A stretch of DNA of 64,000 nt. Origin: Mobula hypostoma (lineage: Eukaryota). Below the pieces are notes generated by a model, which saw nothing but the letters and a program-made list of their open reading frames with translations, was not told where the DNA came from and searched no databases. A program made the translations under genes and the position numbers. The stretch is from the NCBI RefSeq assembly GCF_963921235.1, contig NC_086107.1, positions 93,932,001-93,996,000 on the forward strand, given 5' to 3'. This document shows positions 1,838 through 62,157 of the stretch, in pieces (within the stretch, counting starts at the first letter, position 1; the number at the start of each line of letters is the position of its first letter).

Positions 1838-1974
1838 AAACACGAGGAAATCTGCAGACGCTGGAAATTCAAGCAAACCACACACAAAATGCTGACGTCC
1901 TGAAACGTCAACTGTACTTCTTCCTATAGATGCTGCCTGGCCTGCTGCGTTCCACCGGCATTTCGTGTGTGTTG
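1838..1974. mobile_element. Short inverted (minus + plus) Penelope terminal insertion
   Basis: 15-bp TSD CCTAATCACTGATGT (1823-1837, 1975-1989). A minus-strand tail piece is joined to a plus-strand piece that starts inside the hammerhead (cctgaaacgtcaact). Confidence 0.8.
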
Positions 1975-17263: not shown

Positions 17264-19009
17264 AACTTCTTTATGTTTCTAAGTTGTACTTGTTTTCCTG
17301 TCATGGGATGGCTGTGTAAATATGCTGTACTCTATCTGCTCTATAACATGCTCTGCCACTTTGTAAAACAAGAATAAATAATAATAAAAATTTGAATTAC
17401 AAAAAAAAAAGACCATTAGACATGGGAACAAATTAGGCCATTCAGCCCTTCAAGTATGCTCCACCATCCATCATGGCTGATGTATAATCCCTCTCAACTC
17501 CATTCTCTTGCCTTCTCCCCATAACGTTGACACCTTTACTAAATCAAGAACTGAACAGCCTCTGCTTTAAATTTACCCCCTCCATTGCCATCTGTGGCAA
17601 TGAATTCCAGACTCACCAACCTCTAGCTAAAGAAACTATTTGTGTTGCCATAATTTCACGGATAAGAACTATGAACTACGTATGTTAGACGTGAGTGCTG
17701 GCCAAAGTCAAAGTCCCATCTTCAAATCACTCACCACTAAGGTTTAGTCCTATCTGTGAACCTTTTCAGTTCCTGCTCCAAATCTCCAAATTTGTGGCAT
17801 CAAAGCTGAAGAATTCATGATAATGGAACAATGATGTGTCCCACTGCAGATTAGTGTGGATAACTTCACTCACCTCAACTCTGAAATGATTCTGCAATCT
17901 ACAGACTCACTTTCAAGAACTCTTTAAGCTCATGTTCTCAGTATTATTTATGTTTTCCACACAATTTGTCTTCTTTTACACATTGGTTGCTTGTCAGTCT
18001 TTGTGCACATGTAGCGTTTCATTAATTCTATTCTATTTTTTTATTTTCCTGTAAATGCCTGCAAGAAAATGTATCTCAGGGTAGTATCTAGTGACACATA
18101 GCTTGATAATACATGTTCTTTGATTTTATTTCTCAAGTGCCAAACAAATTGACTTTGAAGCCACTGACTGTTTCCATCTTGCAAGCAGCAAATTCTTGCC
18201 CTTACCTATTTTAAGTTTTAAAAAAGGTTTCTGTCATATTTTAGCTGAAAATTTAAATCTATGCCCCCCTCCCCCTATCCTAAACTATCTGCTAATGGAA
18301 ACAACATCCTTGCATTTATACCACCAAAATTTTGAACACTTGTCAATTCTCCTATCAAGTCTCTTGCTCCAAGGAGAACACCAGCTAGCCCAAAGTAATC
18401 TTATAGCAGAACTGCCTCACTGCCCATCTAATAGACCCCCCTGCAGCGCCAGAGCATACACATCCTTCTTAAAGTGCAGTTACCAGAAATGGGCACTTTG
18501 CACATAACTGTTGTCTTGGTTGAACTTCGTGGCTTTTGCATTCCTGCCTCTACTCACCAATCCCAGGACCTCCTTTGCTTCACTAGATCAATAGAGGAAT
18601 ACAATTTCTAAGGAACAGCACCAATCTTCATTCACTCCCCACAGACATGATCAAGACAGAGATTAATAAATTATATGTTTGTGACAGACCATCAACAGAT
18701 TCTTAAGATACAATGGAAATCAAGGCATATAGTATTTGCATGTGAAAGTGGAATTGAGGTATCAGATCAGTCAAGGGGCTGAATGATTTACTCCCACTAA
18801 TTCCTATAGTCCCACTAATTTCAGCTCTGGTTGCCTCGTTATGATAATAATAACCTATATAGAGAGAACTTTTCATATAGAGGATCTACAATGGGATAAA
18901 GTACAAACATGAAAATAAAAGACAAAAAGAAGTTAGTTAAAATCAAGCAACACACATCAAAGTTGCTGGTGAACGCAGTAGGCCAAGCAGCATTTGTAGG
19001 AAGAGGTGC

Positions 19010-19045
19010 AGTCGACGTTTCAGGCCGAGACCCTTCGTCAGGACT
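19010..19045 (-). ncRNA. Minimal type I hammerhead ribozyme of the Penelope-like element (intact core)
   Basis: Minus strand reads AGUC-CUGACGA-AGG-gucucgg-CCU-GAAAC-GUC/GACU. Stem I is AGUC:GACU and stem II AGG:CCU. Stem III is a loopless ACGU palindrome, as in PLE minimal hammerheads. Predicted cleavage between 19014 and 19013. Confidence 0.85.
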
Positions 19046-19337
19046 AACTGAAGGAAGAGTGAGTAAGGGATTTGAAAGTTGGAGGGGGAGGGGGAGATCC
19101 AAAATGATAGAAGACAGAAGGGGGAGGGATAGAGCCAAGAGCTGGACAGGTGATAGGCAAAAGGGGATACGATGGGATCATGGGACAGGAAGTCCGGGAA
19201 GAAAGACAAGGGCGGGGGGAACCCAGAGGATGGGCAAGAGGTATATTCAGAGGGACAGAGGGAGAAAAAGGAGAGTGAGAGAAAGAATGTGTGCATAAAA
19301 ATAAGTAACAGATGGGGTACGAGGGGGAGGTGGGACA

Positions 19338-21856
19338 TTAGCGGAAGTTAGAGAAGTCAATGTTCATGCCATCAGGTTGGAGGCTACCCAGACGGAATAT
19401 AAGGTGTTGTTCCTCCAACCTGAGTGTGGCTTCATCTTTACAGTAGAGGAGGCCGTGGATAGACATGTCAGAATGGGAATGGGATGTGGAATTAAAATGT
19501 GTGGCCACTGGGAGATCCTGCTTTCTCTGGCGGACAGAGCGCAGATGTTCAGTAAAGCGGTCTCCCAGTCTGCGTCGGGTCTCGCCAATATATAAAAGGC
19601 CACATCGGGAGCACCGGACGCAGTATATCACCCCAGTCGACTCACAGGTGAAGTGTTGCCTCACCTGGAAGGACTGTCTGGGGCCCTGAATGGTAGTAAG
19701 GGAGGAAGTATAAGGGCATGTGTAGCACTTGTTCCGCTTACACGGATAAGTGCCGGGAGGGAGATCAGTGGGGAGGGATGGGGGGGACGAATGGACAAGG
19801 GAGTTGTGTAGGGAGCGATCCCTGCGGAATGCAGAGAGAGGGGGGGAGGGAAAGATGTGCTTAGTGGTGGGATCCCGTTGGAGGTGGCGGAAGTTACGGA
19901 GAATAATATGTTGGACCTGGAGGCTGGTGGGGTGGTAGGTGAGGACCAGGGGAACCCTATTCCTAGTGGGGTCGCGGGAGGATGGAGTGAGAGCAGATGT
20001 ACATGAAATGGGGGAGATGCGTTTAAGAGCAGAGTTGATAGTGGAGGAAGGGAAGCCCCTTTCTTTAAAAAAGGAAGATATCTCCCTCGTCCTAGAATGA
20101 AAAGCCTCATCCTGAGAGCAGATGCGGCGGAGACGGAGGAATTGCGAGAAGGGGATGGCGTTTTTGCAACAGACAGGGTGAGAAGAGGAATAGTCCAGAT
20201 AGCTGTGAGAGTCAGTAGGCTTATAGTAGACATCAGTGGATAAGCTGTCTCCAGAGACAGAGACAGAAACAGAAAGATCTAGAAAGGGGAGGGAGGGGTC
20301 GGAAATGGACCAGGTAAACTTGAGGGCAGGGTGAAAGTCGGAGGCAAAGTTAATAAAGTCAACGAGTTCTGCATGCGTGCAGGAAGCAGCGCCAATGCAG
20401 TCGTCGATGTAGCAAAGGAAAAGTGGGGGACAGATACCAGAATAGGCACGGAACATAGATTGTTCCACAAACCCAACAAAAAGGCAGGCATAGCTAGGAC
20501 CCATACGGGTGCCCATAGCTACACCTTTAGTTTGGAGGAAGTGGGAGGAGCCAAAGGAGAAATTATTAAGAGTAAGGACTAATTCCGCTAGACGGAGCAG
20601 AATGGTGGTAGAGGGGAACTGATTAGGTCTGGAATCCAAAAAGAAGCGTAGAGCTTTGAGACCTTCCTGATGGGGGATGGAAGTATATAAGGACTGGACA
20701 TCCATGGTGAAAATAAAGCGGTGGGGGCCAGGGAACTTAAAATCATTGAAAAGTTTAAGAGCGTGAGAAGTGTCACGAACATAGGTCGGAAAGAATTGAA
20801 CAAGAGGTGATAAAACAGTGTCGAGGTATGCAGAAATGAGTTCGGTGGGGCAGGAGCAAGCTGAGACAATAGGTTGGCCAGGACAGGCAAGGTTGTGGAT
20901 CTTGGGTAGGAGGTAGAAACGGGAAGTGCGGGGTGTGGGAACTATAAGGTTGGTAGCAGTGGATGGGAGATCCCCTGAGCGGATAAAGTCGGTGATGGTG
21001 TGGGAGACAATGGCCTGGTGCTCCTTAGTGGGGTCATGATCGAGGGGTAAATAAGAGGAGGTATCCGCGAGTTGTCGCTGTGCCTCAGCAAGGTAGAGGT
21101 CAGTACACCAGACTACAACAGCACCCCCCTTATCGGCGGGTTTAATAATAAGGTTAGGATTAGTGCGGAGGGAGTGGAGAGCAGAGCGTTCCAAAGGAGT
21201 GAGGTTGGAATGGGGACAAGGTGCGGTGAAGTCGAGACGGTTGATGTCCCATCGGCAGTTAGCGATTAAGAGATCCAGAGCAGGCAGAAGACTAGAGTGG
21301 GGTGTCCATGAAGAAGAGGAGGGTTGAAGACGGGAGAAGGGGTTATCGGTGGGGGTGGAAGAGTCCTTGCCGAAGAAGTAGGCTCGGAGACGGAGACGGC
21401 GGAAGAAAAGTTCCGCATCGTGGCGAACACGGAACTCGCTGAGGTGTGGGCGAAGGGGGACAAAGGTGAGGCCCTTACTGAGGACAGAGCGTTCTGCCTC
21501 CGACAGTTGAGGGTCGGAGGGGATGGTAAAGACCCGACACGGATGAGAGCTGGGATCAGAGGCGGGAGGAGGGAGGCTGAGGGTGTCAATGGAGAGGGGA
21601 GGGTTGGGGTGAGAGGAAGATGGAGCCTCTGAGGGCCCAGGAGTTGACGGTGGGATCTGAGGAAGAAGGGGCTGTGGAGTGGTGGTGGGGGAAGGGGAGA
21701 CGGAAGTCACAACAGCAGCACATAAAGACCCGGCCTGGAGTTCAAGGCTGGCGTCGCAGTTGGTGGTTGCGCAATCGCTGTGAAGGTGTCCATGGTCGTT
21801 GCTGGAGTCCGGGTTTTGAATATGTCCATGGTCGTTGCTGGAGTCCGGGTTTTGAA
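19338..21856 (-). CDS. Penelope-like RT + GIY-YIG endonuclease (uninterrupted frame; element-derived part of the 861-aa ORF)
   Basis: PLE motifs LSKGLTFVP, KPADKGGAVVV, FYLLPKIH, MDVQSLYTSIP, GVAMGTRMGP, YIDD, FLDL, VYYKPT. Cys-rich linker (CKRNKCYTC). GIY-YIG (VIYCVRCSRCGLLYIGETRR...EH...HF...EQHLI...GMN). Confidence 0.93.
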
Positions 21857-21858
21857 TA
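21787..21858. repeat. 36-bp perfect tandem duplication at the 5' junction of the Penelope copy
   Basis: TGTCCATGGTCGTTGCTGGAGTCCGGGTTTTGAATA x2 (21787-21822, 21823-21858). Encodes IQNPDSSNDHGH twice. Confidence 0.95.
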
Positions 21859-21924
21859 GTTAAAATCAAAATTAAATAAATAAGTTTTGAGCTGGCGTAT
21901 AAAAGTGCCAACTGAGTCTGCATC

Positions 21925-22260
21925 CCTTATTGTTTTAGGTACTGAAATCCACAGTTTAGTTCAAAAAAGCTGACTTGCCAATTATCTTTTGAGGGAGATT
22001 GCTTAGATTTAAGGCAGAAGTTGTTCTGAGTGCTCGGACAGTACTATAAAATGAAAGGGATTCTGTGATGTACTCTAGTCCCAGGCCATGGAGAGCTTTA
22101 AAAAAAACATGCAAGAGAATTTTAAAATTAATTCTAACAGATCTTAGAAGCCAATGCAAAGTAGCTAGTACTGGAGTAATATGCTCCCCCCATCCTAGTT
22201 TTAGTAGTCTAGCAACAGTATTCTTATAGGAACGATGTTGAGCTTTAGAGAGGACACAGA
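21925..22260 (-). mobile_element. L2-type LINE 3' fragment
   Basis: ARLL...EHITPVLATLHWL...RINFKILL...KALHGLG.EYITESL, a typical fish L2 C-terminus. Confidence 0.75.
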
Positions 22261-23735: not shown

Positions 23736-23834
23736 CACTCGAACAAAGGATGATACATAATCCAAGGTGGAGCTCTCACTGCCTGGCTTCCTTGGGATTC
23801 TAATTCGGTACAACCCGTCTGTACTAGCCATATC
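23736..23834 (-). CDS. EMC10: EMC10 coding exon 4 (DMASTDGLYRIRIPRKPGSESSTLDYVSSFVRV)
   Basis: Acceptor tttcattctgcag, donor GTG|gtaggc, 99 nt, phase 0. Matches human DVAALNGLYRVRIPRRPG...YVSSFV. Confidence 0.92.
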
Positions 23835-25100: not shown

Positions 25101-26027
25101 AAAACAGGTGATCTTTTCAGGAGGCTGGCTTTGGGCATGCAAATAACACGGCAAAGCCAATGAGTTTAACTAGGACCTCATCACTGGTAAATGCAAAACT
25201 ATAATATGCTTACCTTATTCACTTGATCATACCATCAATACCAACATCAAACCTACAAACATCTGTAACTTTGTGAACTTTAACTTGGAAGGCCAAATGT
25301 ATAATTACCGAAAAGCATAAAGCTTTGTAAATGTAAACAAAGATCACCTAGCCATTAAATAAAATTCTAGACTGAGTATACTGAGCAAACAATCAACATA
25401 ACAGTGTTTAACATATTCGTCACGTCCAGAAACTACCTTTTGCATAATATACCCACAAAATCATGACCAGATATAGAGAAGTTAACATGGATAACAAAAT
25501 TATTTTCCATGCATCTTTATTGCTCTTTAAGAAAACTATTATCAATGGAGTTCAATTCTGGCATCATCTGGTAGGAGCTTGTTATGTTTTCTTCATGACC
25601 AGTGTGGGTTTCCTCCCAGTGCTCCAGTTTCTTTTCACAGTCCAAAGGTATACCCATTAGTAAATTGTCCTGTGATTATTCTAGGGTTAAATGGGCAACA
25701 CAGCTTGTTGGTCTGGAAGAGCCTGTCCTAGATTGTATTTCCACATAAACAAAAAAAAAATAGGTACATATAGCTCGATGATAATTAGTCGCCTAGCAAT
25801 TTCTGGGCTCAGTTATACTACTTAATGTGCATAGTCACAACATGTTAACTTACTAACTAAAGGTTTTAGTAATGCTTGACACTATGATAGCAATAAAAAA
25901 AAATTTAAAAGCTAATCAATAACTTGTAGGGAAAATAAAGAAAAGTTAAGGCTAAAGAAAACAAAATGCATATTTGCTTATTTGAAGCTACTTCTCTTCA
26001 AGAATCCAAGGACTTGGTATTACTTAC

Positions 26028-30213: not shown

Positions 30214-30391
30214 TTGGAAGTTTCGTTGATCACCGAGCTTGGGAAAATGTTTACAGACATTTCGGCTACAATCGAGAAGCCATTGTCAGTGCGGAGTTGG
30301 ACCATCAACCGCACACTAATAATGGCTTCTCGATTGGAGCTGAAACTTCTGCAAACATTTTGCCAAGCTCGGCGATAAACTAAACTTCCAA
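30214..30391. repeat. 178-nt imperfect inverted repeat (hairpin)
   Basis: Arms of ~77 nt (ttggaagttt...gagaagccattgtcagtg vs cactaataatggcttctc...aaacttccaa), ~11 scattered mismatches, short centre. Confidence 0.9.
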
Positions 30392-30413: not shown

Positions 30414-30603
30414 TTCTGCAGAAACTGGAAATTCAGAGCAACACACAAAATGTTGGAGGAACTCAACAGGTCGGGCAGCATCTACGTAGGGGAATAAACT
30501 GTTGAAGTTTCCGGCCAAGACCCATCATCGGGACTGGAATGGAAGGGAGAAGGAGCCTGCTGTCTGACCTGCTGAGTTCCTCCAGCATATTGTGTGTTTT
30601 GCA
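30414..30603. mobile_element. Old inverted Penelope terminal insertion
   Basis: A minus-strand terminus with a degenerate hammerhead (~30500-30537) is followed by a plus-strand terminus (tgctgtctgacctgctgagttcctccagcat). Similar remnants at ~6697-6935, 34450-34565 and 35113-35310. Confidence 0.65.
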
Positions 30604-34120: not shown

Positions 34121-34723
34121 TTTACAAGTTCGCTTTCTTCCCAATGATCAAGCACCATCAATTTTAATATAATCACCAAATATTTAATCTACACCTCAAA
34201 AAACGATACTAAGTCCAGCTCCACTGTATCTCCTTTTTAGTATTACACATTATTCTCTATAACAGAGCCAAATTTAATCCAGCTTGCCATTTTCTGCTAG
34301 TTTTCACTTTCCTGATCAATCTACCATTTGTCAAATTCATGGATCAAAGCTATTTCCCTCATCAATCACCCTTGCTACTTCACAAAAGTTCAATCAAGCT
34401 AGAATTTTCCTTTAATAGATCCATGTCAATTGTCTTTGGCCATTAACTTATCCTGATGAAGGATCTCAGACTGAAACATTGACTCTTTATTCCCTTCCAT
34501 AAATACTGCCTGACTTGCTGAGTTCCTCCAGTATTTTGTGTCTGTGTGCTCAATATCTACAGAATTTCATATATCTACAATGATACCTGGTTTTGATTTA
34601 TGCTAGTCTCCAGAATTATTCCAATAATTCACCTTTTGTGAATGTCAGCTTGTAGTTACTCAGTCTACCCTTTATTGAAACCACTTCAGTGTTGTAATCC
34701 CCTACCACCACACCACAGTCACT

Positions 34724-34748: not shown

Positions 34749-37700
34749 GTAGTTCACAGTAACAAAGATGACTATCTCCCCCACTGTTTTAGTTCAAGTA
34801 GAGGATGCTCAAGGGCAGAATTGATAAAACTCTCTTTTCACTCTTGCACAGTAATAATAGACATACTTTTCTTCTTCGAACATGGAAACACATTGATTAA
34901 GAAATTAGGAGAGATGATCCACAGTACCATGGGAAAAGGGCAAAAAGCTTCAAACCCACTTCATATCTCATTGACAGAGCATGTTAAGTCCCAACTTCAG
35001 AACTGCCGTAAAAAAAAATTTACATCAATTACTTAGGAAATACAGTTATCATGCAGAAAATGTGACATTAAACCTAAGGACTGAATCCCACCAGTAGCAA
35101 TAACCAAGTAATAAACCACAAGAAATTTTGCCGATGCTGGAGATCCAGTACAACGCATGTAAAATGTTAGAGGAACTCAGCGAGTCAGGCAGCATCTATG
35201 GAGAGAAATAAACTGTTGATGTGTCAGGCTGAGATCCTTCATCATGACTGGAAAGGAAGACCCTTCATCTGTCTCGGCCTAAAATGTCAACAGTTCATTC
35301 CTCTCCATAGAATGACCAAGTTAGTTTTGTATAGTGCTACTGGTTGAAGGATAAACATTCCTAGGGCACTGAGAAAAATTCTCCAGCTGCTTCTCAAAAT
35401 AACATTAATGGATCTTGAAATCCATTCAATACAGCAAACCTTGCCACAAATAGTGGATCACTTTCATTCTGTCCTGAAGTATCCAACTAAACTTTACACT
35501 CAAGTCTATGGAGTTGAGCGTGAATCCATGATGTTCAGGCATAGATTGAAAGCAGCTGTCACCAAGATAAACCCAATGCTGAATAATAAGATTTAAAGAT
35601 GGATCTCTAGCCCGAAGACAAACTGTAATCATTAACCCAATCAGTGATGCAGGATGTTAAGCACAAATGCTGTAGATTAGCTTTATAAAGATAAGATTTG
35701 AAGATTAGCTTTATTTGTCATGTGTACATTGAAACATACAGCAAAATGTATCATTTTTTTTTGCGTCGACAGCCAATACAATCCGAGAATTGTGCTGGGA
35801 GCAGTCCACAAGCAACACCACACTTCAGACGCCATCACAGTATGCCCACAACTCAACAACTCTAACCTGTAGGTCTCCAGAATGTGGGAGGAGACCAGGG
35901 CGCCAGGATGAAACCCACACAGTCACAGGGAGTATGTACAAACTCCTTCCTAACAGCAGCGGGAATCAAACTTCAACTGGTGATCACTGGCATTGTAAGG
36001 CGATTACACTAACAGCTATGCTACCCCATGCAATAGTTTACAAGTATTCTTTCAATAAATGCATTTGAACTGCCAGTCAACCAATAAAGCCTGATGAGAA
36101 ACTTAGTGATCAATTAAAAAGATTATAGAGGATATATTTTCAGCACCAATATTAAAATATAAAGCCCATGAGCAATTACCCTTGTGGTGATTTACTGCCA
36201 TGTTAAAGTGGCCTTGTACCAGAAGTGATTACTCATTGTGAATCAAACAGTTTGCTCTTTATATTCACAGCTACATTTGTTTTGAGAAAAATGTTTTTGG
36301 AATGAAGCGAAATTGGAAAAATTCTGCCCATTTCAAGATAGGCCCAAATCTCAACAGGACAGAGCAGTACTCTCTCAAAGAGATTATATCTGTCACTAAT
36401 GCAGATTTATTGGATGAAAGTACGCAGTATATCACAGGATGACTGCACAAAGTATGCTAAGACAGAAATGTGCAGGTTTTCTGGAAGCAAATGTAATACT
36501 TAATTTTATTTATGCCTTATTCTTAAGCACTTTTTGTAATCTGTGACAAAATCATTTCAGATGGTTCTAATTATGTATTCTGCCTCAAAGATCACCATGC
36601 CTTGGATTACGGTAATGAGAAGATGAAAAACTGACATTCTCAAGGACTTATGAGGTTCACATACAGTTATCTTTAAGAGAAGAACCTTTAAGAGATGATC
36701 ATATTGAAAGGTCAAGCAATGATTTGGGCTGCCTCAGCTCAGTACAATTGTTTCAATTTATTCATTTATCACAACATGGAATTCACTGGCAAAGCTGGCG
36801 TGTATTTTTCATTTCTAATTACCCTGGGGAAACTAGCGGCAAGTTACTTTTTAAACCATTGTCATTTTTTCTTCTGAAGGCACTCTCACAATTTGACATT
36901 ACTTTTCATTTCCCCCCTATCCAAACAGCAGGAAGAGAAATAACTATAATGCACAACAGTGCATGCAGAGGCAATGGTCTTCTGAGGCTGAGGTTCAAGT
37001 GGCTGCCAGAAGAGATTTTAAAGAGTTTCTCCACACCTAACAACCAGCACATTAAGGAATCCAGCTTCCCCTCCAAAAAATTAAAGATTAGCTTAACTTG
37101 TCACATGCAGTGAAATGTATCATCTGTGTCAATGACCAACAGTCCAAGGATTGCTCTGAGGGCAACATACAAGGGAGTCAGTCTACGCCAGCTTAATCAA
37201 AGACCCTTCACAGCTCAGACCATCTCTCATTCCCCTCTACCCTTCAGGCAAAAGATACAACAACCTGAAAGCGTCTATCATTAGACTCCAGGATAGCTTC
37301 CATCCTGCTCTTCTAATCTCATTGAACAGTCCCCTAGTATGCCAAGATCGACTCTTGACCTCAGTTAACCTCGTCATGACCCTTGCACCTTATTACCTGC
37401 ACTGTTCTTTCTCTATAACTATAAAACTTAATTCTGCATTCTATTATTGCTTGTCTCTGTATTACCTCAATGAACTGTTGTAATGAAATGATCTGTATGG
37501 ATGGTATGCAAGACAAGTTTTTCACTGCACCTCAAAACATGTGAAAATAATAAAACAATCAGCTAATTCTATATATATACACCAAGAAGATAACATTCAG
37601 ACTTTGGGTGAATCATCTACAAGATGATTCAAGCTGTGCTGTGCCCTAAACCGCAAATTATTCCAACCCAATGCTAATTAATAAACCAGTTTTGATCATT

Positions 37701-41470: not shown

Positions 41471-44400
41471 ATGGAGTCTATTATTAATTTTGTCTCCTGG
41501 AATACTAATGGTCTTAATCATCCTATTAAAAGGAAAAAAGTTTTTAAAGTGTTCCGGAGACTTAAAGCACAAATTTTATTCTTACAAGAGACCTATGTGC
41601 GGAGGGGGGACAGACTATATTTTTTTAAATTCTGGAAGGGATAAAAGTTTCATTCGAACTCCAATACTAAGATTTGAGGCGTCTCTATTTTTATAGACTC
41701 CTCAGTTACTTTTATACAACATGATATTATTTCTGATCCGAATGGTAGATTTCTATTGGTTAGTGGTTTACTATTTAATAAAAAAGTAGTTTTGGTTAAT
41801 GTTTATGCTCCTAATATGGACTGTCCGGAATTTTATAAATCATTATTTAATCAGTTTCCGAATTTGAATGAGTTTTCATTGATCTGGGGCGGAGATCTTA
41901 ATACCTGTTTGTCTCCAGCTTGGGACCGTTCGGCTCCTTTACGGACCTTACCTAATAAATCTGCAACTTTGATTAATTCATTCCTTTCTGATTCTGGGTC
42001 GACGGACATTTGGCGCTTTTTGCATCCTCAGGAAAAAGATTTTTCTTTTTTTTCCACATGTTCATCATTCCTATTCAAGAATTGATTATTTCTTTATTGA
42101 TTCTCGTCTTATTTCCTCTGTGATTATGACTCTATAACCATTTCGGATCATGCTCCACTTAAGCTTTCTATTAAAATTCTGGCCAATATACAAAATAATA
42201 GACAATGGCGTTTTAATTCGCTGTTGCTTCAGGACTCAGACTTTGTTAACTTTATGAATGAACAGACTGATCTTTTTTTCACAATTAACCATACAGAGGA
42301 TATTTCTGTTAACACTCTTTGGGACACTTTCAAAGCTTATATTCGTGGTCAGATTATCTCGTATTCTGCTGCTTTGAGGAAGAAGCAGAAGCAGGAGGAG
42401 TTGGTAATTGTGGGCAAGATTAAGGAAATTGATAAGAAATATGTTATAGCTCCTTCTGAGGAGTTATATAAACAAAGAACTGAACTTCAAATGGAACACA
42501 GTTTATTACTCTCGTCCTCGATTGTAAACCAATTAAAGAAAACAAGAAGTGAATTTTATGTACACAGTGACAAAATTGGCAAACTGTTGGCTAATCAATT
42601 GAAGTCTAATTATGCTAAATCTCAAATTAATCAGATTTATAACCAAAATGATCGACTGATACTTGATCATGTGGGGATTAATCAAACCTTCTGTGAATTT
42701 TACTCTTCCTTATATCAATCAGAGTCTCCTCGAGATTCTAAATATATGAATGATTTTTTAGATAATTTAGACTTCCCTGAGATTTCACAGGATATGGCTT
42801 CTATGTTAGATACTCCCATTACCATGGATGAGATTAAGAATGTTATTTTCTCTATGAATTTGGGGAAAGCTCCTGGCCCTGATGGGTTTACCGTAGAATT
42901 TTATAAATGTTTTGCTCCTTCATTAATCCCTTGGCTCTGTAGGGTTTTTGAGGCTTCATTGAAACTTGGTAAACTTCCTGAATCTTTTAATAGAGCGTCA
43001 ATTTCTTTAATATTAAAGAAGGATAAAGATCCTGCTCAATGTGCATCTTATAGACCAATATCTTTATTAAATGTTGATTCTAAAGTTTTTTCTAAGTTAT
43101 TAGCAAATAGATTAGAAAAAGTACTTCCCTCTATTATTTCGGAAGACCAAACGGGTTTTATTAAAGGTCGTTACTCTTTTTATAATATTCGTACACTGTT
43201 AAATATCGTTTATACTCCCTCACAAAATGTTCCTGAGTGTGTTATCTCTTTAGATGCCGAGAAAGCTTTTGATAGAGTAGAATGGCCTTATTTATTTAAG
43301 GTGCTTGAAATGTTTAATTTTAGCTCGAAATTTATATCCTGGATTAAACTCTTATATTATTCTCCTGTGGCCTCGGTCCGTACTAACTCTTTAAGTTCAC
43401 CTTTTTTCCCTCTTTTTCGAGGTACTCGACAAGGTTGTCCTCTTAGTCCCTTATTATTTGATATTGCATTAGAACCTCTTGCAATTGCCATTCGAGAATC
43501 TCCAAATATTACTGGGATAACTCGGGGCTTAAAGTCCCATAAATTATCACTCTATGTTGATGATTTACTTTTATATATTTCTAATCCTCAAAAATCCATC
43601 CCGGCTGTTTTAGAGTTATTAGCACAATTTGGTCTTTTTTCAGGTTATAAATTAAATCTTAGTAAGAGTGAACTCTTTCCGATTAATAAACAACTTCCCT
43701 TATATTATAAATTTCCATTTAAATTGATTAATAATTATTTTTCATATCTTGGGATTAAAATTACTTGTAAATACAAAGATTTATTTAAGACTAACTTTTT
43801 ACCATTAATAGACCATATTACTCAACTTTCATCTAAATGGTTTCCTTTATATTTAACTTTGATTGGTCGTATTAATGCAGTTAAGATGTTTTTTTTGCCA
43901 AAATTTTTATATATGTTTCAGGCATTACCAATCTTTGTTCCAAAATCTTTTTTTGACAAAGTTGACTCTAAAATTTCTTCATTTATTTGGCAGAATAAAA
44001 ACCCGAGACTGGGTAAAATACATTTACAGAAAGCTAAGAGAGATGGAGGCTTAGCATTACCTAACTTTAGATTTTATTATTGGGCAATTAATATTCGACA
44101 TATGAAATTCTGGTTACTGGACCAGGATATACTATCCATTCCTAAATGGGTAGTATTGGAATTACAATCTGTTCAGGGTTTTACACTTGGCTCTATTTTA
44201 GGTTCCTCTCTTCCTTTTGATTGGAAACGCCTTAAACAGGTGTCTAACCCGATAGTTAAATATATCTTGCGTATTTGGTTTCAATTCAGAAAATTTTTTG
44301 ATCTTAATCAATTTGGGTTAGCGATTCCTATTTTAGGTAACATATTTTTTCCTCCCTCTTTTACGGATCGTGCTTTTCAAACTTGGAAGACTAAGGGTAT

Positions 44401-45237
44401 TTCACGGTTTTTGGATTTATTTTTAGATGGTTCCCTTATGTCTTTTGAACAATTATCTAATAAATATAACTTATCAAGAATACATTTTTTTAGATATCTA
44501 CAAGTTAGAAATTTCCTAAGTACTATACTTTCTTCCTTTCCAATGCTTCCTCCTACATACATTTTAGATACTATAATCAACCTTAATCCATGTCAGAAAG
44601 GTGCATCGGCTATGATTTATAATATTATTATGAAACTTAGGAAAGCTCCATTTGATAAGATTAGGGTCGATTGGGAACAGGAATTGGGGTTTACCATTTC
44701 CGTGGATGACTGGGGGCAGATTTTACAATTAGTCAATACTTCCTCTATCTGTGCTAAACATTCCCTAATTCAATTTAAAGTTGTTCCTAGAGCACATATG
44801 TCCAAAGATAAGTTAGCGCGCTTTTATTCTCATATTAATCCTTTTTGTGATATATGTCCGGGGCAGATAGCCTCTCTGACTCATATGTTTTGGTCTTGCC
44901 CTACTTTGGAAACTTTTTGGAGAGACATTTTAATATTATCTCCAAGGTATTGAATATAGATATCTCTCCTCACCATATTACTGCTATCTTTGGACTACCT
45001 AAAATTTCCAGTAATCTCTCCCCTTCAGCCCGTAGAATGATTGCATTTCTTACTTTAATGGCGAAAAGATGTATCTTACAACATTGGAAAGAGCTTAATG
45101 CTCCAACTACCTTTTTTTGGTTTTCTCAGACGATATTATGCTTGAATCTGGAGAAAATTAGAAGCAATCTTTATGACTCCTCATTTAAATTTGAACAGAC
45201 TTGGAGATATTTTATTCAATATTTTCATTTAATGTAA
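41471..45237 (+). pseudogene. L1 ORF2 (APE endonuclease, RT, C-terminal Cys/His), few disablements
   Basis: MESIINFVSWNTNGL, FLQET, NVYAPN, GGDLN. A 909-aa open segment (42224-44953) has YRPISLLNVD, SLDAEKAFDRV, GTRQGCPLSP, LYVDD, HMFWSC. Stops and frameshifts in EN and the C-terminus. Confidence 0.9.
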
Positions 45238-52400: not shown

Positions 52401-52918
52401 TCTAGTGATCCAATATTCACTCTCACCTCTCTTTTATTCTTTAGATAGCTGAAAAAAACTTCTGGTATGCTTTTTCATATTATTGGCTAGCTTACCTTTG
52501 TATTTAATCTTTTCTCTCATTATGGCTTCTTTACCTGCCTTCTGTTGTTTTTTTTTAAAAAAGCTTCCCAATCCTCTACCTTCCCACTAATTTTTCTGAT
52601 TTATATGCCCACTCTTTTGCTTCTTTGTCAGACATTGTTACCTTATCCTACTTCATCTTTGGGATGTGTTTGTCTTGAACCTTCCAAATTGCTCCCAGAA
52701 ACTCCAGCCATTGCTGTTCTGCCGTCATCCCGACTATTGTCCCTCCCAATCAACTGTGGGCAGATTCTTTCTCATGTCTCTGTATTTACATTTACTCCAC
52801 TGTAATACTGTTGCATCTAACTTTATCTTCTCCCTTTCAAACTGCAGGGTGAATTCTATTATATTATGATCACTGTCTTCTAAGTGTTCCTTTACCTTAA
52901 GCTCCCTAATCAAATCTA

Positions 52919-52978
52919 ACCAGCAACTTTGATGTGTGTTGCTTGAATTTCCAGCATCTGCAGAATTCCTGTTGTTTG
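52919..52978 (+). mobile_element. 60-bp Penelope terminal fragment insertion
   Basis: 13-bp TSD CTAATCAAATCTA (52906-52918, 52979-52991). Sequence equals the PLE 3' terminus plus tail. Inserted in a CR1. Confidence 0.85.
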
Positions 52979-53104
52979 CTAATCAAATCTAGTTCATTAC
53001 ACAACACCCAATCTAGAACTGCCTTTTTCATAGTGGGCTCAACCATTCTGTAGGCATTCTACAAATTCCCACTTGGGATCCAGCACCAACTTGATTTTCC
53101 CAAT

Positions 53105-53261
53105 TCTCTTACTAGCTCTTCTTTCAGTTAGTCCTGACGAATGGTCTCCGCCCGAAACATCGACTGTACCTTTTCCTAGAGATGCTGCCTGGCCTGCTGC
53201 GTTCACCAGCAACTTTTATGTGTGTTGCTTGAAATTCCAGCATCTGCAGAATTCCTCGTGT
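53105..53261 (+). mobile_element. Short Penelope 3'-end insertion with a degenerate hammerhead (53130-53165)
   Basis: 14-bp TSD TTGATTTTCCCAAT (53091-53104, 53262-53275). Core reads agtc-CTGACGA-atggtctccgccc-GAAAC-atc-gact. Inserted in a CR1. Confidence 0.85.
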
Positions 53262-53622
53262 TTGATTTTCCCAATCTACCTGTATATTGAAATCCCCCAT
53301 TACTATTGTAACATTGCTCTTTTCAAACATGCCTTTCTGTTGTGCAGATGTCTGTATATAATTCCAATTAGGCACACTTTACCTTGTAGTTTCTTAACTC
53401 TACCCACAAGGATTCTATATATTCCAATCCCATCTCACCTCTTTATAAGGATTTGATTTGTTTTTCAACTAATAGAGCCACCCTACCTCCTCTGCCTTTC
53501 CAGAAAATATGTATCCTTGGAGGTTGAGCTCCCAACTATAATCCAGTAAATAAATATCATTATCATTCTAGAAATTGCCCTCTCCCTTGATATCTTCACA
53601 AAGAATGGTACACTTCAATAGA

Positions 53623-53860
53623 AAAAAACGCAAACAACAGGAATTCTGCAGATGCTGGAAATTCAAGCAACACACATCAAAGTTGCTGGTGAACGCAGCA
53701 GGCCAGGCAGCATCTATAGGAAGAGGCGCAGTCGACGTTTCAGGCCGAGACCCTTCGTCAGGTCCTGACGAAGGGTCTCGGCCTGAAACGTCGACTGCGC
53801 CTCTTCCTATAGATGCTGCCTGGCCTGCTGCGTTCACCAGCAACTTTGATGTGTGTTGCT
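53623..53860. mobile_element. Palindromic non-autonomous Penelope-derived mini-element with two hammerhead cores
   Basis: 14-bp TSD TACACTTCAATAGA (53609-53622, 53861-53874). Perfect inverted repeat 53665-53762 / 53764-53861 with a 1-nt spacer. Nearly identical to 18947-19043. Confidence 0.9.
53761..53796 (+). ncRNA. Minimal hammerhead ribozyme (right arm of palindrome)
   Basis: GGUC-CUGACGA-AGG-gucucgg-CCU-GAAAC-GUC/GACU, predicted cleavage after 53792. The mirror core is on the minus strand at ~53730-53762 with a disrupted stem I. Confidence 0.8.
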
Positions 53861-54477
53861 TACACTTCAATAGAGTTTTTTTTTAAATTTAGAGACACAA
53901 TAAAATCACAGCCCCTTCTGGCCCAATGTATCCATGCTGCTCAATTACACCCAAGTGACAAATTAACATACTGACCCATACACCTTTGGAATGTGGGAGG
54001 GAACCCGAGCACCCGGAGGAAACATACATGGTCACAGTGAGAACATAGAAATGCCTTACAGACAGAGACAGCTGTGAACCCAGGGTGCTGGCGCTGTAGA
54101 AGTGTTACGCTAATCACTATACCACTGCGCTGCTCTGATCAGGGAAGAATACTACAGCGGCACTTAGAGAGGACATTGTAAAGGGCTCATCTGGTGATGC
54201 AACATGAGAGCTCAGGAACAAGGAGACACAATCACTACAACGGGACTATACTACAAGCCTCCCATAAGTCTGTATTGATAAGAGAGACAGAGATGCAAGC
54301 AAATTATGGAAAGACGTAAAAGCAATATGGCAGTCACCATTTTTTAACCTTAATATCCCCAATATTGACTAGGCCTCTCTCTCCAGACGTCAGAACTTTC
54401 TTTTAGAACACAGGGATTGGTAGTGCCTGAAGTGGTAAAAGCTGATACGTTAGGAGCATTTAAGGAAATCTTAAATA

Positions 54478-55689: not shown

Positions 55690-56105
55690 TGTTTTGAGCC
55701 GCGTGTGGAGGGCACAGTACCCGGGACAGAGACAGCACCGCGCCTTTACCTGCAGCCTCTGCCTGTGTCAACTGCCTCACCTCCCGGCTGTCCCATTCCC
55801 CCCGGCCTCGGTCCCCGCGCCTCCGCTCTTCCTCCTCCCCACCCCGCCTCGGCGCCCCCAGGACCGGACTCTCCTCACTCACCCGCCGGGTGTTGCAGAG
55901 CCCGACGCCCAACAGCGCCAACAGCAAGAAGCCGCCCCGGACAACCATCCGTTCCATCACCGGGCAATTACAGCCCCGCGGCATCACGGGATTCTGGCTG
56001 ACTATGGCAGAGGGCATGACGGGACATAGGAGGACCTTCTCCCTGGGAAGGAGTGGTGTTGAACGATGTTGGGGGCCCTAAATCAGCATATTCCGTCCCC
56101 CGTGA
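55690..56105. promoter_or_regulatory. CpG island / probable EMC10 promoter and 5' end
   Basis: GC- and CpG-rich non-repeat segment spanning EMC10 exon 1 in an otherwise AT-rich, CpG-poor window. Confidence 0.7.
55883..55957 (-). CDS. EMC10: EMC10 coding exon 1 (signal peptide, MERMVVRGGFLLLALLGVGLCNTRR)
   Basis: ATG at 55957 in good context (gtgATGG), hydrophobic signal peptide, perfect donor CGG|gtgagt (GT at 55882-55881), phase 0 matching exon 2. Lies in a CpG-rich island. Other in-frame ATGs at 55948, 55984 and 56017 make the exact start uncertain. Confidence 0.85.
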
Positions 56106-60185: not shown

Positions 60186-62157
60186 GAGAAAGTGGCTCAC
60201 CTGAGGACTGAGAGAAATTCAGAGTTCAGCAGAGGAGGACAAAGGGCTTAATTAGGAAGGGGAAAAAAGACTATGAGAGAAAACTGGCAGGGAACATAAA
60301 AACTGACTGTAAAAGCTTTTATAGATATGTAAAAAGGAAAAGACTAGTAAAGACAAATGTAGGTCCCCTACAGACAGAAACAGGTGAATTGATTATGGGG
60401 AGCAAGGACATGGCAGACCAATTGAATAATTACTTTGGTTCTGTCTTCACTAAGGAGGACATAAATAATCTTCCAGAAATAGTAGGGGACAGAGGGTCCA
60501 GTGAGATGGAGGAACTGAGCAAAATACATGTTAGTAGGGAAGTGGTGTTAGGTAAATTGAAGGGATTAAAGGCAGATAAATCCCCAGGGCCAGATGGTCT
60601 GCATCCCAGAGTGCTTAAGGAAGTAGCCCAAGAAATAGTGGATGCATTCGAGATAATTTTTCAAAACTCGTTAGATTCTTGACTAGTTCCTGAGGATTGG
60701 AGGGTGGCTAATGTAACCCCACTTTTTAAAAAAGGAGGGAGAGAGAAACCGGGGAATTATAGACCGGTTAGCCTAACGTCAGTGGTGGGGAAACTGCTGG
60801 AGTCAGTTATCAAAGATGTGATAACAGCACATTTGGAAAGCGGTGAAATGATCGGACAAAGTCAGCATGGATTGTGAAAGGAAAATCATGTCTGACGAAT
60901 CTCATAGAATTTTTTGAGGATGTAACTAGTAGAGTGGATAGGGGAGAATCAGTGGATGTGGTATATTTGGATTTTCAAAAGGCTTTTGACAAGGTCCCAC
61001 ACAGGAGATTAGTGTGCAAACTTAAAGCACACGGTATTGGGGGTAAGGTATTGATGTGGATAGAGAATTGGTTAGCAGACAGGAAGCAAAGAGTGCGAAT
61101 AAACGGGACCTTTTCAGAATGGCAGGCAGTGACTAGTGGGGTACCGCAAGGCTCAGTGCTGGGACCCCAGTTGTTTACAATATATATTAATGACTTGGAT
61201 GAGGGAATTAAATGCAGCATCTCCAAGTTTGCGGATGACACGAAGCTGGGCGGCAGTGTTAGCTGTGAGGAGGATGCTAAGAGGATGCAGGGTGACTTGG
61301 ATAGGTTGGGTGAGTGGGCAAGTTCATGGCAGATGCAATTTAATGTGGATAAATGTGAAGTTATCCACTTTGGTGGCAGAAATAGGAAAACAGATTATTA
61401 TCTGAATGGTGGCCAATTAGGAAAAGGGGAGGTGCAACGAGACCTGGGTGTCATTATACACCAGTCATTGAAAGTGGGCATGCAGGTACAGCAGGCGGTG
61501 AAAAAGGCGAATGGTATGCTGGCACTTATAGCGAGAGGATTCGAGTACAGGAGCAGGGAGGTACTACTGCAGTTGTACAAGGCCTTGGTGAGACCACACC
61601 TGGAGTATTGTGTGCAGTTTTGGTCCCCTAATCTGAGGAAAGACATCCTTGCCATAGAGGGAGTACAAAGGAGGTTCACCAGATTGCTTTCTGGGATGGC
61701 AGGACTTTCATATGAAGAAAGACTGGATGAACTAGGCTTGTACTCGTTGGAATTTAGAAGATTGAGGGGGGATCTGATTGAAACATATAAAATCCTAAAG
61801 GAATTGGACAGGCTAGATGCAGGAAGATTGTTCCCGATGTTGGGGAAGTCCAGAACGAGGGGTCACAGTTTGAGGATAAAGGGGAAGCCTTTTAGGACTG
61901 AGATTAGGAAAAACTTCTTCACACAGAGAGTGGTGAATCTGTGGAATTCTCTGCCACAGGAAACAGTTGAGGCCGGTTCATTGGCTATACTTAAGAGGTA
62001 GTTAGATATGGCCCTTGTGGCTACGGGGATCAGGGGGTATGGAGGGAAGGCTAGTGCAGGGTTCTGAGTTGGATGATCAGCCATGATCATAATAAATGGC
62101 GGTGCAGGCTTGAAGGGCTGAATGGCCTACTCCTGCACCTATTTTCTATGTTTCTAT
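60186..62157 (+). mobile_element. Young 5'-truncated CR1 LINE inserted in a V-SINE
   Basis: ORFs 60389-60682 and 60874-62001 (KSPGPDGLHPRVLKE, YLDFQKAFDKVPH, SGVPQGSVLGP, KFADDTKL). 3' tail ttctatgtttctatg. The SINE resumes (gacacttgcaggctg) after it. Confidence 0.92.

What the first reader, a model, noticed from the sequence alone, without database searches (positions are those of the whole stretch)
53609..53874. Perfectly palindromic, recently inserted mini-retroelement made of two back-to-back hammerhead ribozyme cores
Seen: a 238-bp insert between exact 14-bp TSDs. It consists of a 42-bp tail plus a zero-mismatch 98-bp inverted repeat with a 1-nt spacer. The fold-back point (53763) falls in the 5' strand of hammerhead stem I, so each strand carries CUGACGA...GAAAC-GUC. 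Known: Penelope-like elements carry minimal hammerheads and can leave inverted terminal repeats. Inference: this is either a template-switch product whose inversion point is set by the ribozyme boundary, or a replicating non-coding, ambisense retrozyme-like unit mobilised by the Penelope RT. In EMC10 intron 1 it would also form ~98 bp of perfect dsRNA.
Basis: partly seen in the sequence, partly recalled or inferred. Interest (0 to 1): 0.8.

Follow-up and report, generated by a model that had tools for sequence, protein, structure and literature searches.

The report
Young head-to-head Penelope retroelement fragment
This perfect 197-bp palindrome is a recent but ordinary insertion made of two short tail-end pieces of a Penelope-like retrotransposon joined head to head, an insertion shape already described for this element class, not a new self-copying ribozyme element.

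Summary
The sequence observation holds. There are exact 14-bp target-site duplications, a 238-bp insert, a 42-nt one-sided extension and perfect 98-nt inverted arms around base 53763. Each strand carries CUGACGA...GAAAC-GUC. The insert is the 3' end of a multi-copy Penelope-like element (PLE). [quoted passage not shown] A head-to-head inverted 5'-truncated copy, a 30-40-bp tail at one end only, a variable TSD and a minimal hammerhead in the repeat are the published PLE insertion architecture. Three other copies in the window have this architecture, with junctions at other positions. The fold-back point lies about 30 nt from the predicted hammerhead cut site. A contig from a related organism shows the empty site with one TSD copy, so the insertion is real and young. 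Rfam finds no hammerhead, and 10 copies give no covariation. As RNA the unit folds into one perfect hairpin (-216 kcal/mol), which leaves no room for a hammerhead fold. It has no direct tandem repeats, so it is not a retrozyme. Most likely both target strands primed cDNA on the same short PLE RNA and the two cDNAs were joined. Ordinary; low interest.

The parts
53609..53622 (.). Left copy of the 14-bp target-site duplication TACACTTCAATAGA
   Evidence: Exact direct repeat. The organism-B contig carries a single copy at the empty site (record 21).
53623..53630 (-). 8 extra nucleotides (AAAAAACG on plus) between the TSD and the family terminus. They are absent from the termini of the other copies and are probably untemplated or read-through addition.
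   Evidence: The 100%-identical 61-nt copy starts at q8/q9, and the other tailed copies start at q9-q14.
53631..53664 (-). The PLE 'tail': about 34 nt of family 3' terminus present on this arm only
   Evidence: Tailed termini lie at q8-14 in six copies. Tail-less termini lie at q37-45 in the right arm, c18939, c1896 and c30414.
53665..53762 (-). Left arm: 98 nt of the PLE 3' end, element sense strand = window minus. With the tail it forms a 140-nt 5'-truncated copy.
   Evidence: 94% identical to the 3' end of the full-length copy at 18939-19042.
53763..53763 (.). Centre of the palindrome (T on plus); the head-to-head junction
   Evidence: The junction logic is given in the Full report section.
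53764..53860 (+). Right arm: the same PLE 3' segment in the opposite orientation (sense = window plus), without tail, ending at the tail-less terminus
53861..53874 (.). Right copy of the 14-bp TSD
53765..53792 (+). Minimal hammerhead motif of the right arm: CUGACGA, unpaired A, a 4-bp helix II (G.U, G-C, G-C, U.G; loop CUCG), then GAAA-C-GUC. The predicted cut is after 53792.
   Evidence: core string. Features were compared with the min-HHR description read. There is no Rfam hit.
53734..53761 (-). Mirror-image minimal hammerhead motif of the left arm; the predicted cut is after 53734 on the minus strand
18939..21926 (-). Reference full-length family member: open 862-aa ORF (19338-21926) with RT and C-terminal GIY-YIG, then a 3' UTR and a tail-less terminus (18939-19337)
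53104..53261 (+). Neighbouring simple 5'-truncated copy of the same family, with tail and exact 13-bp TSD TTGATTTTCCCAA (53091 and 53262)
52919..52978 (+). Copy of about 60 nt, 100% identical to the tail region of the finding, with exact 13-bp TSD CTAATCAAATCTA (52906 and 52979)
1838..1974 (.). Second head-to-head unit with a one-sided tail and exact 15-bp TSD CCTAATCACTGATGT (1823 and 1975). The arms end at q66 and q125 and are joined through ACGT.

Best explanation
The 238-bp insert is a by-product of ordinary retrotransposition of a canonical endonuclease-containing Penelope-like element that appears to have been active recently in this lineage. It consists of two 5'-truncated copies of the element's last ~100-140 nt lying head to head. 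One copy (140 nt) starts at the outer reverse-transcription start and so carries the ~35-nt tail plus 8 extra nt. The other (98 nt) starts at the inner start and lacks the tail. The inferred mechanism is as follows. The PLE nuclease cut both target strands 14 bp apart. Each 3'-OH primed cDNA synthesis on the 3' end of PLE RNA, probably on the same short RNA molecule, so both cDNAs ran off at almost the same 5' position (q140 and q142). The two antisense cDNA ends paired through a single terminal G:C and each was extended on the other. This reproduces both strands of the observed junction exactly. The minimal hammerhead motif is a passenger: it belongs to the copied segment and so appears on both strands, and it did not cut the template or set the junction. 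The unit has no coding capacity and no sign of autonomous or retrozyme-type replication. If transcribed it is a 98-bp perfect hairpin.
For: Shown:
- The family is a PLE. The terminal sequence lies directly 3' of an 862-aa open ORF with RVT_1 and C-terminal GIY-YIG hits. The ORF has DKG, YIDD, a CX4CX2C linker and GVIY...YIGE motifs. The nearest Atlas clusters carry HTH_animal/DUF8422/GIY-YIG/RVT_1. A second copy with the same order lies at 378-1154.
- Copies show the signature of target-primed insertion. TSDs are exact at 14, 13, 13 and 15 bp, the 3' end is always retained and 5' truncation is variable.
- There are two discrete termini about 35 nt apart, q8-14 versus q37-45.
- 4 of 13 family loci in the window are head-to-head units with a tail on one side. 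Their junctions are at q140/142, q66/125, about q161/90 and about q156/129.
- The empty site with one TSD copy is present in a 465-nt contig of organism B, which has 5 differences (record 21).
- The arms have 0 mismatches in 98 pairs, and CpGs are retained at 53727/28 and 53798/99, where about two thirds of family depth reads TG/CA.

From papers:
- PLE insertions often carry an adjacent inverted 5'-truncated copy and a 30-40-bp tail at one end (PMC8557442 passages; PMC3846280 passages).
- A purified PLE protein cleaves and extends both DNA strands and starts reverse transcription at two adjacent internal sites whose spacing equals the tail. Hammerhead mutants do not affect insertion (PMC11167929 main text).

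Inferred: the use of one RNA molecule for both cDNAs and the 1-nt pairing at the junction.
Against: - The near-equality of the two arms (q140 vs q142) needs the extra assumption of a shared RNA 5' end or chance. Another old copy (34452-34565) also ends at q141-143, which hints at a preferred end next to the hammerhead core. I estimate about 0.26 for such a coincidence among the 9 other cDNA ends, so this is not significant.
- Arkhipova et al. 2013 favour self-priming for palindromic junctions, and I cannot exclude an intermolecular version of that.
- In vitro both start sites were used on both strands, so the one-sided tail is not explained by that work alone.
- The in-window full-length copy shows no upstream direct pLTR.
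- Pfam scores for RVT_1 (24.0 vs 29.6) and GIY-YIG (20.0 vs 22.6) are below the curated cut-offs.
- The empty site in organism B could in principle be a precise deletion between the TSDs.
- No whole genome was available, so the family-wide distribution of junctions is unknown.
Confidence: 0.82

Rival explanations
1. The junction is not arbitrary. PLE template RNAs have a preferred 5' end, or the RT has a preferred stop, immediately 5' of the hammerhead core (q140-143). A ~140-nt 'hammerhead-to-terminus' module is therefore copied from both target strands and regularly yields perfect palindromes.
For: Both arms end within 2 nt of each other. An unrelated old copy at 34452-34565 loses similarity at the same place, q141-143.
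Against: The three other head-to-head units and the two simple truncated copies end elsewhere: q66, 125, 161, 90, 156, 129, 68 and 172. Contigs that become loose just before 53762 end in ...CAGTTA, the standard upstream sequence, in 275, 165, 42 and 36 contigs of the four runs, though the 30-letter consensus has low agreement of 0.39-0.54. The position is not the hammerhead cut site, which is q111/112. In vitro, hammerhead mutants do not change the insertion products, and no reads end at the cut site.
Confidence: 0.1
2. Self-priming (snap-back): one cDNA, or an antisense template, folded back on itself and was copied. This gives equal arms by construction, as proposed for palindromic PLE junctions by Arkhipova et al. 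2013.
For: Equal arms follow naturally from this model. The model is in print for PLEs (passages).
Against: The observed junction would need a hairpin with a 1-nt loop and 1 nt of pairing. The pairing actually available at the cDNA end (GAC with GTC) predicts ...CAGGACGAAGG, which is not what is seen (sequence logic). A self-copy should continue through the tail. Instead the second arm stops at q44, the same place where tail-less termini of independent copies lie.
Confidence: 0.05
3. A replicating, non-coding, ambisense retrozyme-like unit: the palindrome itself is a master copy that is transcribed, processed by its hammerheads and re-inserted by PLE RT.
For: It retains an intact family 3' terminus that a PLE RT could recognise. 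Solo pLTR constructs can be mobilised in trans (passages). Animal retrozymes are argued to derive from PLE pLTRs (abstract only).
Against: There are no direct tandem repeats. Rfam recognises no canonical type I hammerhead. GC is 52.9%, against the below-45-50% described for animal retrozymes. The RNA folds as one perfect hairpin, -216.1 kcal/mol, z -27.7, which sequesters both cores. Single min-HHRs were inactive in vitro. The outer end of the tail-less arm coincides with the family's ordinary inner terminus, as expected for a fresh cDNA and not for a processed hairpin transcript. No other copy in the window has this centre.
Confidence: 0.02
4. Assembly artefact: the palindrome does not exist in the organism.
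For: PLE inverted structures are known to trouble assemblies. No listed contig of the likely source sample spans the centre.
Against: The unit is bounded by exact TSDs whose single copy marks the empty site in a related organism. Contigs of run X1 with 0 differences run from each flank into the insert, 53399-53627 and 53842-54004, though with fewer than 31 letters inside, so they do not count as formal bridges. The tail/no-tail layout matches independent copies.
Confidence: 0.01

Closest known systems
Inverted pLTR plus 'tail' insertion architecture of endonuclease-containing Penelope-like elements (Arkhipova et al. 2013, PMC3846280; Craig et al. 2021, PMC8557442)
   Same: Head-to-head inverted 5'-truncated copy, a 30-40-bp tail at one end only, a short variable TSD, and a hammerhead motif inside the repeat. 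[quoted passage not shown]
   Different: This is a minimal case. There is no ORF and no direct pLTR, only two terminal fragments. The arms happen to be almost equal, so the unit is a near-perfect 197-bp palindrome.
Minimal hammerhead (min-HHR) of metazoan PLEs (Cervera & de la Pena 2014, PMC4209133)
   Same: CUGANGA and GAAA boxes, an unpaired base between positions 9 and 10.1, no helix III, palindromic 15.2-16.2 (C, G), GUC cut triplet, a 5-bp helix I in intact family copies. That paper also reports dual motifs on opposite strands 100-700 bp apart.
   Different: Helix II has only 4 pairs with two wobbles. Position 11.1 is U, so the pair is G.U instead of the conserved G10.1-C11.1. In the palindrome only 1-2 nt of the original helix I 5' strand remain. 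Activity was not tested.
Metazoan non-LTR retrozymes (Cervera & de la Pena 2020, PMC7229834; Li et al. 2026 preprint, abstract only)
   Same: Short, non-coding, hammerhead-bearing, and probably dependent on PLE reverse transcriptase.
   Different: Retrozymes are direct tandem repeats of 150-450 bp with canonical type I hammerheads and low GC, and they are expressed as circRNAs. This unit is a single inverted pair with 53% GC and a minimal motif.
Twin-priming 5' inversions of LINE-1 (recalled from memory: Ostertag & Kazazian 2001; not read here)
   Same: Both target strands prime cDNA on one RNA, giving an inverted 5' part within one TSD-bounded insertion.
   Different: In L1 twin priming the inverted part comes from RNA upstream of the direct part. 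Here both arms copy the same terminal segment, starting from two PLE-specific internal start sites.

Membership tests
Endonuclease-containing Penelope-like element (canonical, C-terminal EN) | Single ORF with RT followed by a C-terminal GIY-YIG nuclease in the family's full-length copy | tested here: met
   ORF 19338-21926 (minus): RVT_1 E 3.6e-5 at residues 399-512 and GIY-YIG E 8.3e-4 at residues 765-839, both below the curated cut-offs. YIDD at 506, GVIY at 765, YIGE at 779. Nearest Atlas clusters at 0.98 carry the same domain set.
Endonuclease-containing Penelope-like element (canonical, C-terminal EN) | DKG motif, and in the Neptune/Nematis clades a CX2-5CxxC linker before the EN (features as named in PMC8557442) | tested here: met
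   DKG at residue 265. CKRNKCYTC at residue 729, 36 residues before GVIY. Clade assignment by phylogeny was not done.
Endonuclease-containing Penelope-like element (canonical, C-terminal EN) | Insertions 5'-truncated with short TSDs of variable length | tested here: met
   Exact TSDs of 14, 13, 13 and 15 bp. Copies end at q68, q140/142 and q172.
Endonuclease-containing Penelope-like element (canonical, C-terminal EN) | A 30-40-bp tail at only one end, and an adjacent inverted 5'-truncated copy | tested here: met
   Finding: 42 nt (34 family + 8 extra) on the left arm only. Same layout at 1838-1974 and 30414-30610.
Endonuclease-containing Penelope-like element (canonical, C-terminal EN) | Direct pseudo-LTRs flanking the ORF (partial tandem) | tested here: inconclusive
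   BLAST of 18900-25200 against the window found no copy of the 3' region upstream of the ORF start at 21926. With one full-length copy only, it may be 5'-truncated.
min-HHR of metazoan PLEs | CUGANGA and GAAA boxes with a short helix II between them | tested here: met
   7 matches in the window, 6 of them in family copies. Expected 2.73, and 4 of 100 shuffles reach 7.
min-HHR of metazoan PLEs | [quoted passage not shown] | tested here: met
   CUGACGA-A-GGGU...; GAAA-C-G-U-C.
min-HHR of metazoan PLEs | Conserved G10.1-C11.1 pair | tested here: not met
   This copy has G.U. Among 10 aligned copies the pair is G.U in 5, A-U in 1, G-C in 1 and unpaired in 3 (pair 26-37).
min-HHR of metazoan PLEs | Helices supported by compensatory changes | tested here: inconclusive
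   77.8% of 90 cells are paired, against 14-44% for slid partners. There are 0 pairs with changes on both sides, and 353 of 500 shuffles pair as well. Ten decaying copies are too few.
min-HHR of metazoan PLEs | Self-cleavage (as dimer or with protein) | not testable with these tools
   Needs in vitro transcription. The monomer sense RNA shows no hammerhead fold in its MFE, z 0.62 and -0.07.
Rfam hammerhead families (types I-III, HH9, HH10) | Match to a curated covariance model | tested here: not met
   No hammerhead row at E<=10 in 53300-54200. No match at all at gathering score in the window.
Metazoan non-LTR retrozyme | Direct tandem repeats of 150-450-bp monomers | tested here: not met
   Tandem Repeats Finder returned 0 rows for 52700-54300 at score 30. 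The repeat is inverted.
Metazoan non-LTR retrozyme | Canonical type I hammerhead; low GC (below 45-50%) | tested here: not met
   No Rfam match. GC is 0.529.
Metazoan non-LTR retrozyme | Expressed as circular RNA | not testable with these tools
   No run on record as RNA holds the stretch.
LINE-1-type twin-priming inversion | The inverted segment derives from RNA upstream of the direct segment (recalled, not read here) | tested here: not met
   Both arms cover the same family positions q44-q140.

The most novel reading that the evidence does not exclude
The coincidence of the two cDNA ends (q140 and q142), together with an independent old copy ending at q141-143, could mark a discrete 5' end or RT stop just upstream of the hammerhead core. 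That would define a ~140-nt 'hammerhead-to-terminus' RNA as a minimal PLE template. The dimeric PLE enzyme would copy it from both target strands, so perfect palindromes with this exact centre would recur across the genome. This would give the PLE hammerhead region a role in defining a template boundary, though not by cleavage at its own site.
Probability: 0.1. Interest if true: 0.45.

Novelty: already known. Interest (0 to 1): 0.2.

Why it matters
The main result is a correction: a striking perfect palindrome with 'ribozyme cores' on both strands is the expected debris of Penelope-like element insertion, not a new class of mobile RNA. It still has modest value as a clean, very young natural footprint. 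The TSDs are exact, the empty site is present in a relative, and one arm is tailed while the other is not. This fits the 2024 in vitro finding that a PLE enzyme primes on both DNA strands from two internal start sites. It also shows that this PLE family has been active recently in this lineage, since an open 862-aa ORF lies in the same window. A 197-bp perfect palindrome inside a probable intron may also be a local source of dsRNA or DNA instability, but that is untested.

Tried and rejected
- Public metagenome contigs were scanned for the palindrome centre and, as a control, for the ordinary hammerhead segment. Both were blank, so that collection does not hold the family and the blank says nothing.
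- Sequencing runs: no listed holder is on record as RNA, so nothing can be said on expression, editing or small RNAs.
- The read-laying output lists only the 15 best-supported joints, with 1906 more not shown, so a genome-wide distribution of inversion points could not be extracted. No listed contig spans the palindrome centre.
- Solved structures: no PDB sequence relative of the ORF at E<=0.01.
- EMC10: a six-frame translation was not accepted because of stop codons. Pfam on 147 stop-free ORFs from 45.4-57.9 kb gave no EMC10 hit, so gene identity is left open.
- Earlier notes of this scan: none for this genome or sequence.
- Considered and rejected, for the reasons under Rival explanations and Membership tests: DNA transposon or MITE (TSD length varies from 13 to 15 bp, copies are 3'-anchored with 5' truncation); L1-style twin priming; intramolecular snap-back; a microRNA gene. 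The Rfam mir-3926 and mir-H2 hits, at 51.7 and 36.9 bits, are far below gathering scores of 82 and 92 and only reflect the long hairpin.
Full report
**1. Observation**

The window shows exactly what was described.
- TACACTTCAATAGA occurs twice and only twice, at 53609 and 53861.
- Between the two copies lie 238 bp.
- Around base 53763 the sequence is a perfect palindrome with 98-nt arms, 53665-53762 and 53764-53861. The last pair uses the first T of the right repeat, so 97 nt of the right arm lie inside the insert.
- The 42 nt at 53623-53664 have no partner.
- A whole-window scan for close inverted repeats of 40 nt or more found only this one and a diverged, unrelated one at 30214-30391. Chance is not an issue.
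- Both strands carry CTGACGA-N13-GAAA followed by C-GTC.

**2. What the repeated sequence is**

The insert is not unique. BLAST of the insert and of its left half against the window finds 13 family loci.

One locus, 18939-19042, is 94% identical to the left arm. It continues past the fold-back point into a purine-rich stretch and then into an 862-aa open frame on the minus strand, 19338-21926. That protein has:
- DKG at residue 265 and YIDD at 506;
- a CX4CX2C motif at 729, just before GVIY...YIGE at 765-779.

The protein atlas places it beside clusters carrying HTH_animal, DUF8422, GIY-YIG and RVT_1, at score 0.98, with 23 hits to that domain set. RT followed by GIY-YIG is the defining architecture of endonuclease-containing Penelope-like elements (PLEs), and the linker motif is the one named for the Neptune/Nematis clades (PMC8557442 passages). 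A second, older copy at 378-1154 shows the same order of ORF end, UTR and terminus.

The finding is therefore built from the last 98-140 nt of a PLE. The element's sense strand is the window's minus strand for the left arm and the plus strand for the right arm.

**3. How the family inserts**

I number positions q1-q140 from 53623 along the left arm.

Two neighbouring copies are simple 5'-truncated insertions with exact 13-bp duplications:
- 53104-53261, TSD at 53091 and 53262;
- 52919-52978, TSD at 52906 and 52979, about 60 nt long and 100% identical to the finding.

All copies keep the 3' end and lose variable amounts of the 5' side. This is the signature of target-primed reverse transcription.

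The outer ends fall in two groups.
- Tailed ends lie at q8-14: the finding's left end, 52919, 53133, 1052, 1838 and 35113.
- Tail-less ends lie at q37-45: the finding's right end, the full-length copy 18939, and the second arms at 1896-1980 and 30558-30610.

The roughly 35-nt difference is the PLE tail. In the finding it is preceded by 8 nt (AAAAAACG) that no other copy has.

**4. The architecture is the published one**

Three papers describe it.
- Craig et al. 2021 (passages read) state that PLE insertions often carry an inverted 5'-truncated copy immediately adjacent, and a 30-40-bp tail present at only one end.
- Arkhipova et al. 2013 (passages) describe inverted pLTRs with a 31-bp tail and a TSD as the typical structure. 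They note palindromes at the inverted junctions and units consisting of pLTRs alone.
- Cervera and de la Pena 2014 (parts 1-2 read) describe minimal hammerheads in PLE repeats. They note pairs of such motifs 100-700 bp apart on opposite strands.

In this window, 4 of the 13 loci are such head-to-head units with a one-sided tail:

| Unit | Arm ends | TSD |
|---|---|---|
| The finding | q140 / q142 | exact 14 bp |
| 1838-1974 | q66 / q125 | exact 15 bp |
| 30414-30610 | about q161 / q90 | not clear (old copy) |
| 35113-35312 | about q156 / q129 | 7-9 bp (ACCAAGT) |

. The second arm of 35113-35312 starts at q91, not at the usual tail-less terminus. An older adjacent pair at 24440-25084 may be a fifth unit.

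The finding differs only in that its two arms stop at almost the same nucleotide. That turns a short inverted overlap into a long perfect palindrome.

**5. Age and reality**

Contigs of four coded public runs were laid on 52700-54300.
- A 465-nt contig of organism B (run X4, record 21) aligns to 53287-53608 and continues without any extra letter at 53861-54003, with 5 differences in all. This is the empty site with a single copy of the 14-bp repeat.
- In run X1 (organism A, possibly the assembly's own sample) error-free contigs run from each flank into the insert, 53399-53627 and 53842-54004. Fewer than 31 letters lie inside the insert, so they do not count as formal bridges.

Several facts together support a real and young insertion:
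- the identical arms and the identical TSDs;
- the retained CpGs at 53727/28 and 53798/99, where about two thirds of the family's summed depth reads T or A (table 3);
- the empty site in organism B.

A precise deletion between the TSDs in organism B is a formal alternative.

**6. The hammerhead**

In family copies that extend past the junction, the sense strand reads CAGUUAGUC-CUGACGA-A-GGGUCUCGGCCU-GAAAC-GUC-GACUG.

Set against the min-HHR description, these features fit:
- the two core boxes;
- the unpaired base after position 9;
- the absent helix III, with a palindromic C-G at 15.2/16.2;
- the GUC cut triplet;
- a 5-bp helix I.

These features do not fit well:
- helix II has only four pairs, two of them wobbles;
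- the conserved G10.1-C11.1 pair is G.U here.

Further tests gave little support.
- Rfam reports no hammerhead at E<=10 or at gathering score.
- On an alignment of 10 in-window copies, 77.8% of the cells pair, against 14-44% when partners are slid. There is no compensatory change, and 353 of 500 shuffles pair as well.
- The monomeric sense RNA folds no better than shuffles and its MFE is not a hammerhead.

So it is a motif-level minimal hammerhead of the PLE kind with unknown activity. The literature reports single motifs inactive and dimers weak, and protein-assisted cleavage that is dispensable for insertion in vitro.

In the palindrome only one or two bases of the original helix I 5' strand survive. 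A transcript of the unit folds into one continuous hairpin of -216.1 kcal/mol, against a shuffle mean of -75.3, z -27.7. That hairpin would sequester both cores.

**7. The junction**

The predicted cut site is after 53792 on the plus strand and after 53734 on the minus strand, which is q111/112. The fold-back is at q140-142, so the template had not been cut by its own ribozyme.

On the minus strand, the standard antisense sequence of the family runs through ...CAGGAC (q142) and then continues as the complement of the other arm from q139. On the plus strand the antisense sequence stops at ...CAGG (q140).

This is what results if two antisense cDNAs, ending at q140 and q142, pair by their terminal G and C and each is extended on the other. 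Working this through reproduces both strands (reading; inference). An intramolecular snap-back would need a one-base loop. The pairing actually available at the end (GAC with GTC) predicts a different sequence.

Frangieh et al. 2024 (main text parts 1-2) showed three relevant things for a purified PLE protein:
- it cleaves and extends both DNA strands;
- it starts reverse transcription at two adjacent internal sites, whose spacing equals the tail;
- its products shorten with 5'-truncated templates.

The simplest account of equal arms is therefore that both strands primed on the same short RNA and both cDNAs ran off its 5' end. This step is inferred, not shown.

**8. Is the junction position special?**

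Other ends in the window lie at q66, 68, 90, 125, 129, 156, 161 and 172.

One old copy (34452-34565) loses similarity at q141-143. With nine other ends and a 5-nt window in roughly 150 nt, I estimate a chance of about 0.26 for such a coincidence. It is a hint, not evidence.

In one search, contigs that become loose just before 53762 end in ...CAGTTA, the standard upstream sequence of the family. There were 275, 165, 42 and 36 such contigs in the four runs, although agreement over the 30-letter consensus is low (0.39-0.54). This fits many genomic copies reading through this point.

The genome-wide test could not be run because no genome is held and the metagenome scans were blank.

**9. Other claims**

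- Retrozyme-like unit: animal retrozymes are direct tandem repeats of 150-450 bp with canonical type I hammerheads and low GC. This unit has no tandem repeat, no canonical motif and 52.9% GC.
- EMC10 intron 1: not verified. A CpG island at about 55.8-56.0 kb, with an ORF that begins like a signal peptide on the minus strand, makes a first-intron location plausible for some gene.
- dsRNA: the hairpin is certain on paper, but whether the locus is transcribed is unknown.

**10. Verdict**

This is a real, young and entirely explicable PLE insertion fragment of a published architecture. The only open point is whether the near-coincidence of the two cDNA ends beside the hammerhead core is chance, a shared template end, or a preferred stop.

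Noticed in passing
window 19338-21926 (minus): An 862-aa PLE ORF (RT plus GIY-YIG) without any stop codon, with a methionine at residue 2. Together with the 100%-identical fragments at 52919 and 53623, it suggests the family is or was very recently active in this lineage.
   Followed up: partly
window 52906-53874: Three young fragments of the same PLE family, each with its own exact TSD, lie within 1 kb. Two of them are inserted into a stretch reading ...MGDFN..., which I recall from memory as a LINE AP-endonuclease motif. This may be a local insertion hot spot or AT-rich target preference.
   Followed up: partly
window 34452-34565 (minus): An old family copy (about 70% identity) loses similarity to the family at q141-143, the same position as the palindrome centre of the finding.
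   Followed up: partly
window 53733/53767 (table 5): Two contigs of run X1 join 53733 to 53767, with a 4-nt ambiguity. If these come from other genomic copies, they are inverted junctions whose antisense arm ends within 4 nt of the predicted hammerhead cut site. That could mean cDNA run-off on a cleaved RNA, but support is very thin.
   Followed up: no
window 30214-30391: A second close inverted repeat (86-nt arms, 84% complementary, 6-nt spacer) lies directly upstream of the head-to-head PLE unit at 30414-30610. It has no hammerhead core string and no similarity to the finding's family.
   Followed up: no
window 24440-25084: An older head-to-head pair of the same superfamily: a tailed short arm (24440 to about 24570) faces a longer inverted arm (24661-25084) that reaches into the ORF's C-terminal coding region. 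It is unclear whether this is one event or two.
   Followed up: partly
window 55800-56000: A CpG island (GC 0.70, 21 CpG in 200 bp) with a minus-strand ORF that contains a signal-peptide-like start (M..VVRGGFLLLALLGVGLC). It is possibly the first exon of the host gene; its identity was not established.
   Followed up: partly
window 42101-44953 (+), 60847-62001 (+), 13399-16732 (+): Other retroelement ORFs: RVT_1 at E 3e-39 with zf-RVT (LINE-like), plus further RVT_1 fragments. The window is dense in retrotransposons.
   Followed up: no
window 53623-53630: Eight nucleotides (AAAAAACG on plus, CGUUUUUU at the sense 3' end) sit between the family terminus and the TSD and are not seen in other copies. 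Their origin is unknown: untemplated addition, or read-through from the source locus.
   Followed up: no
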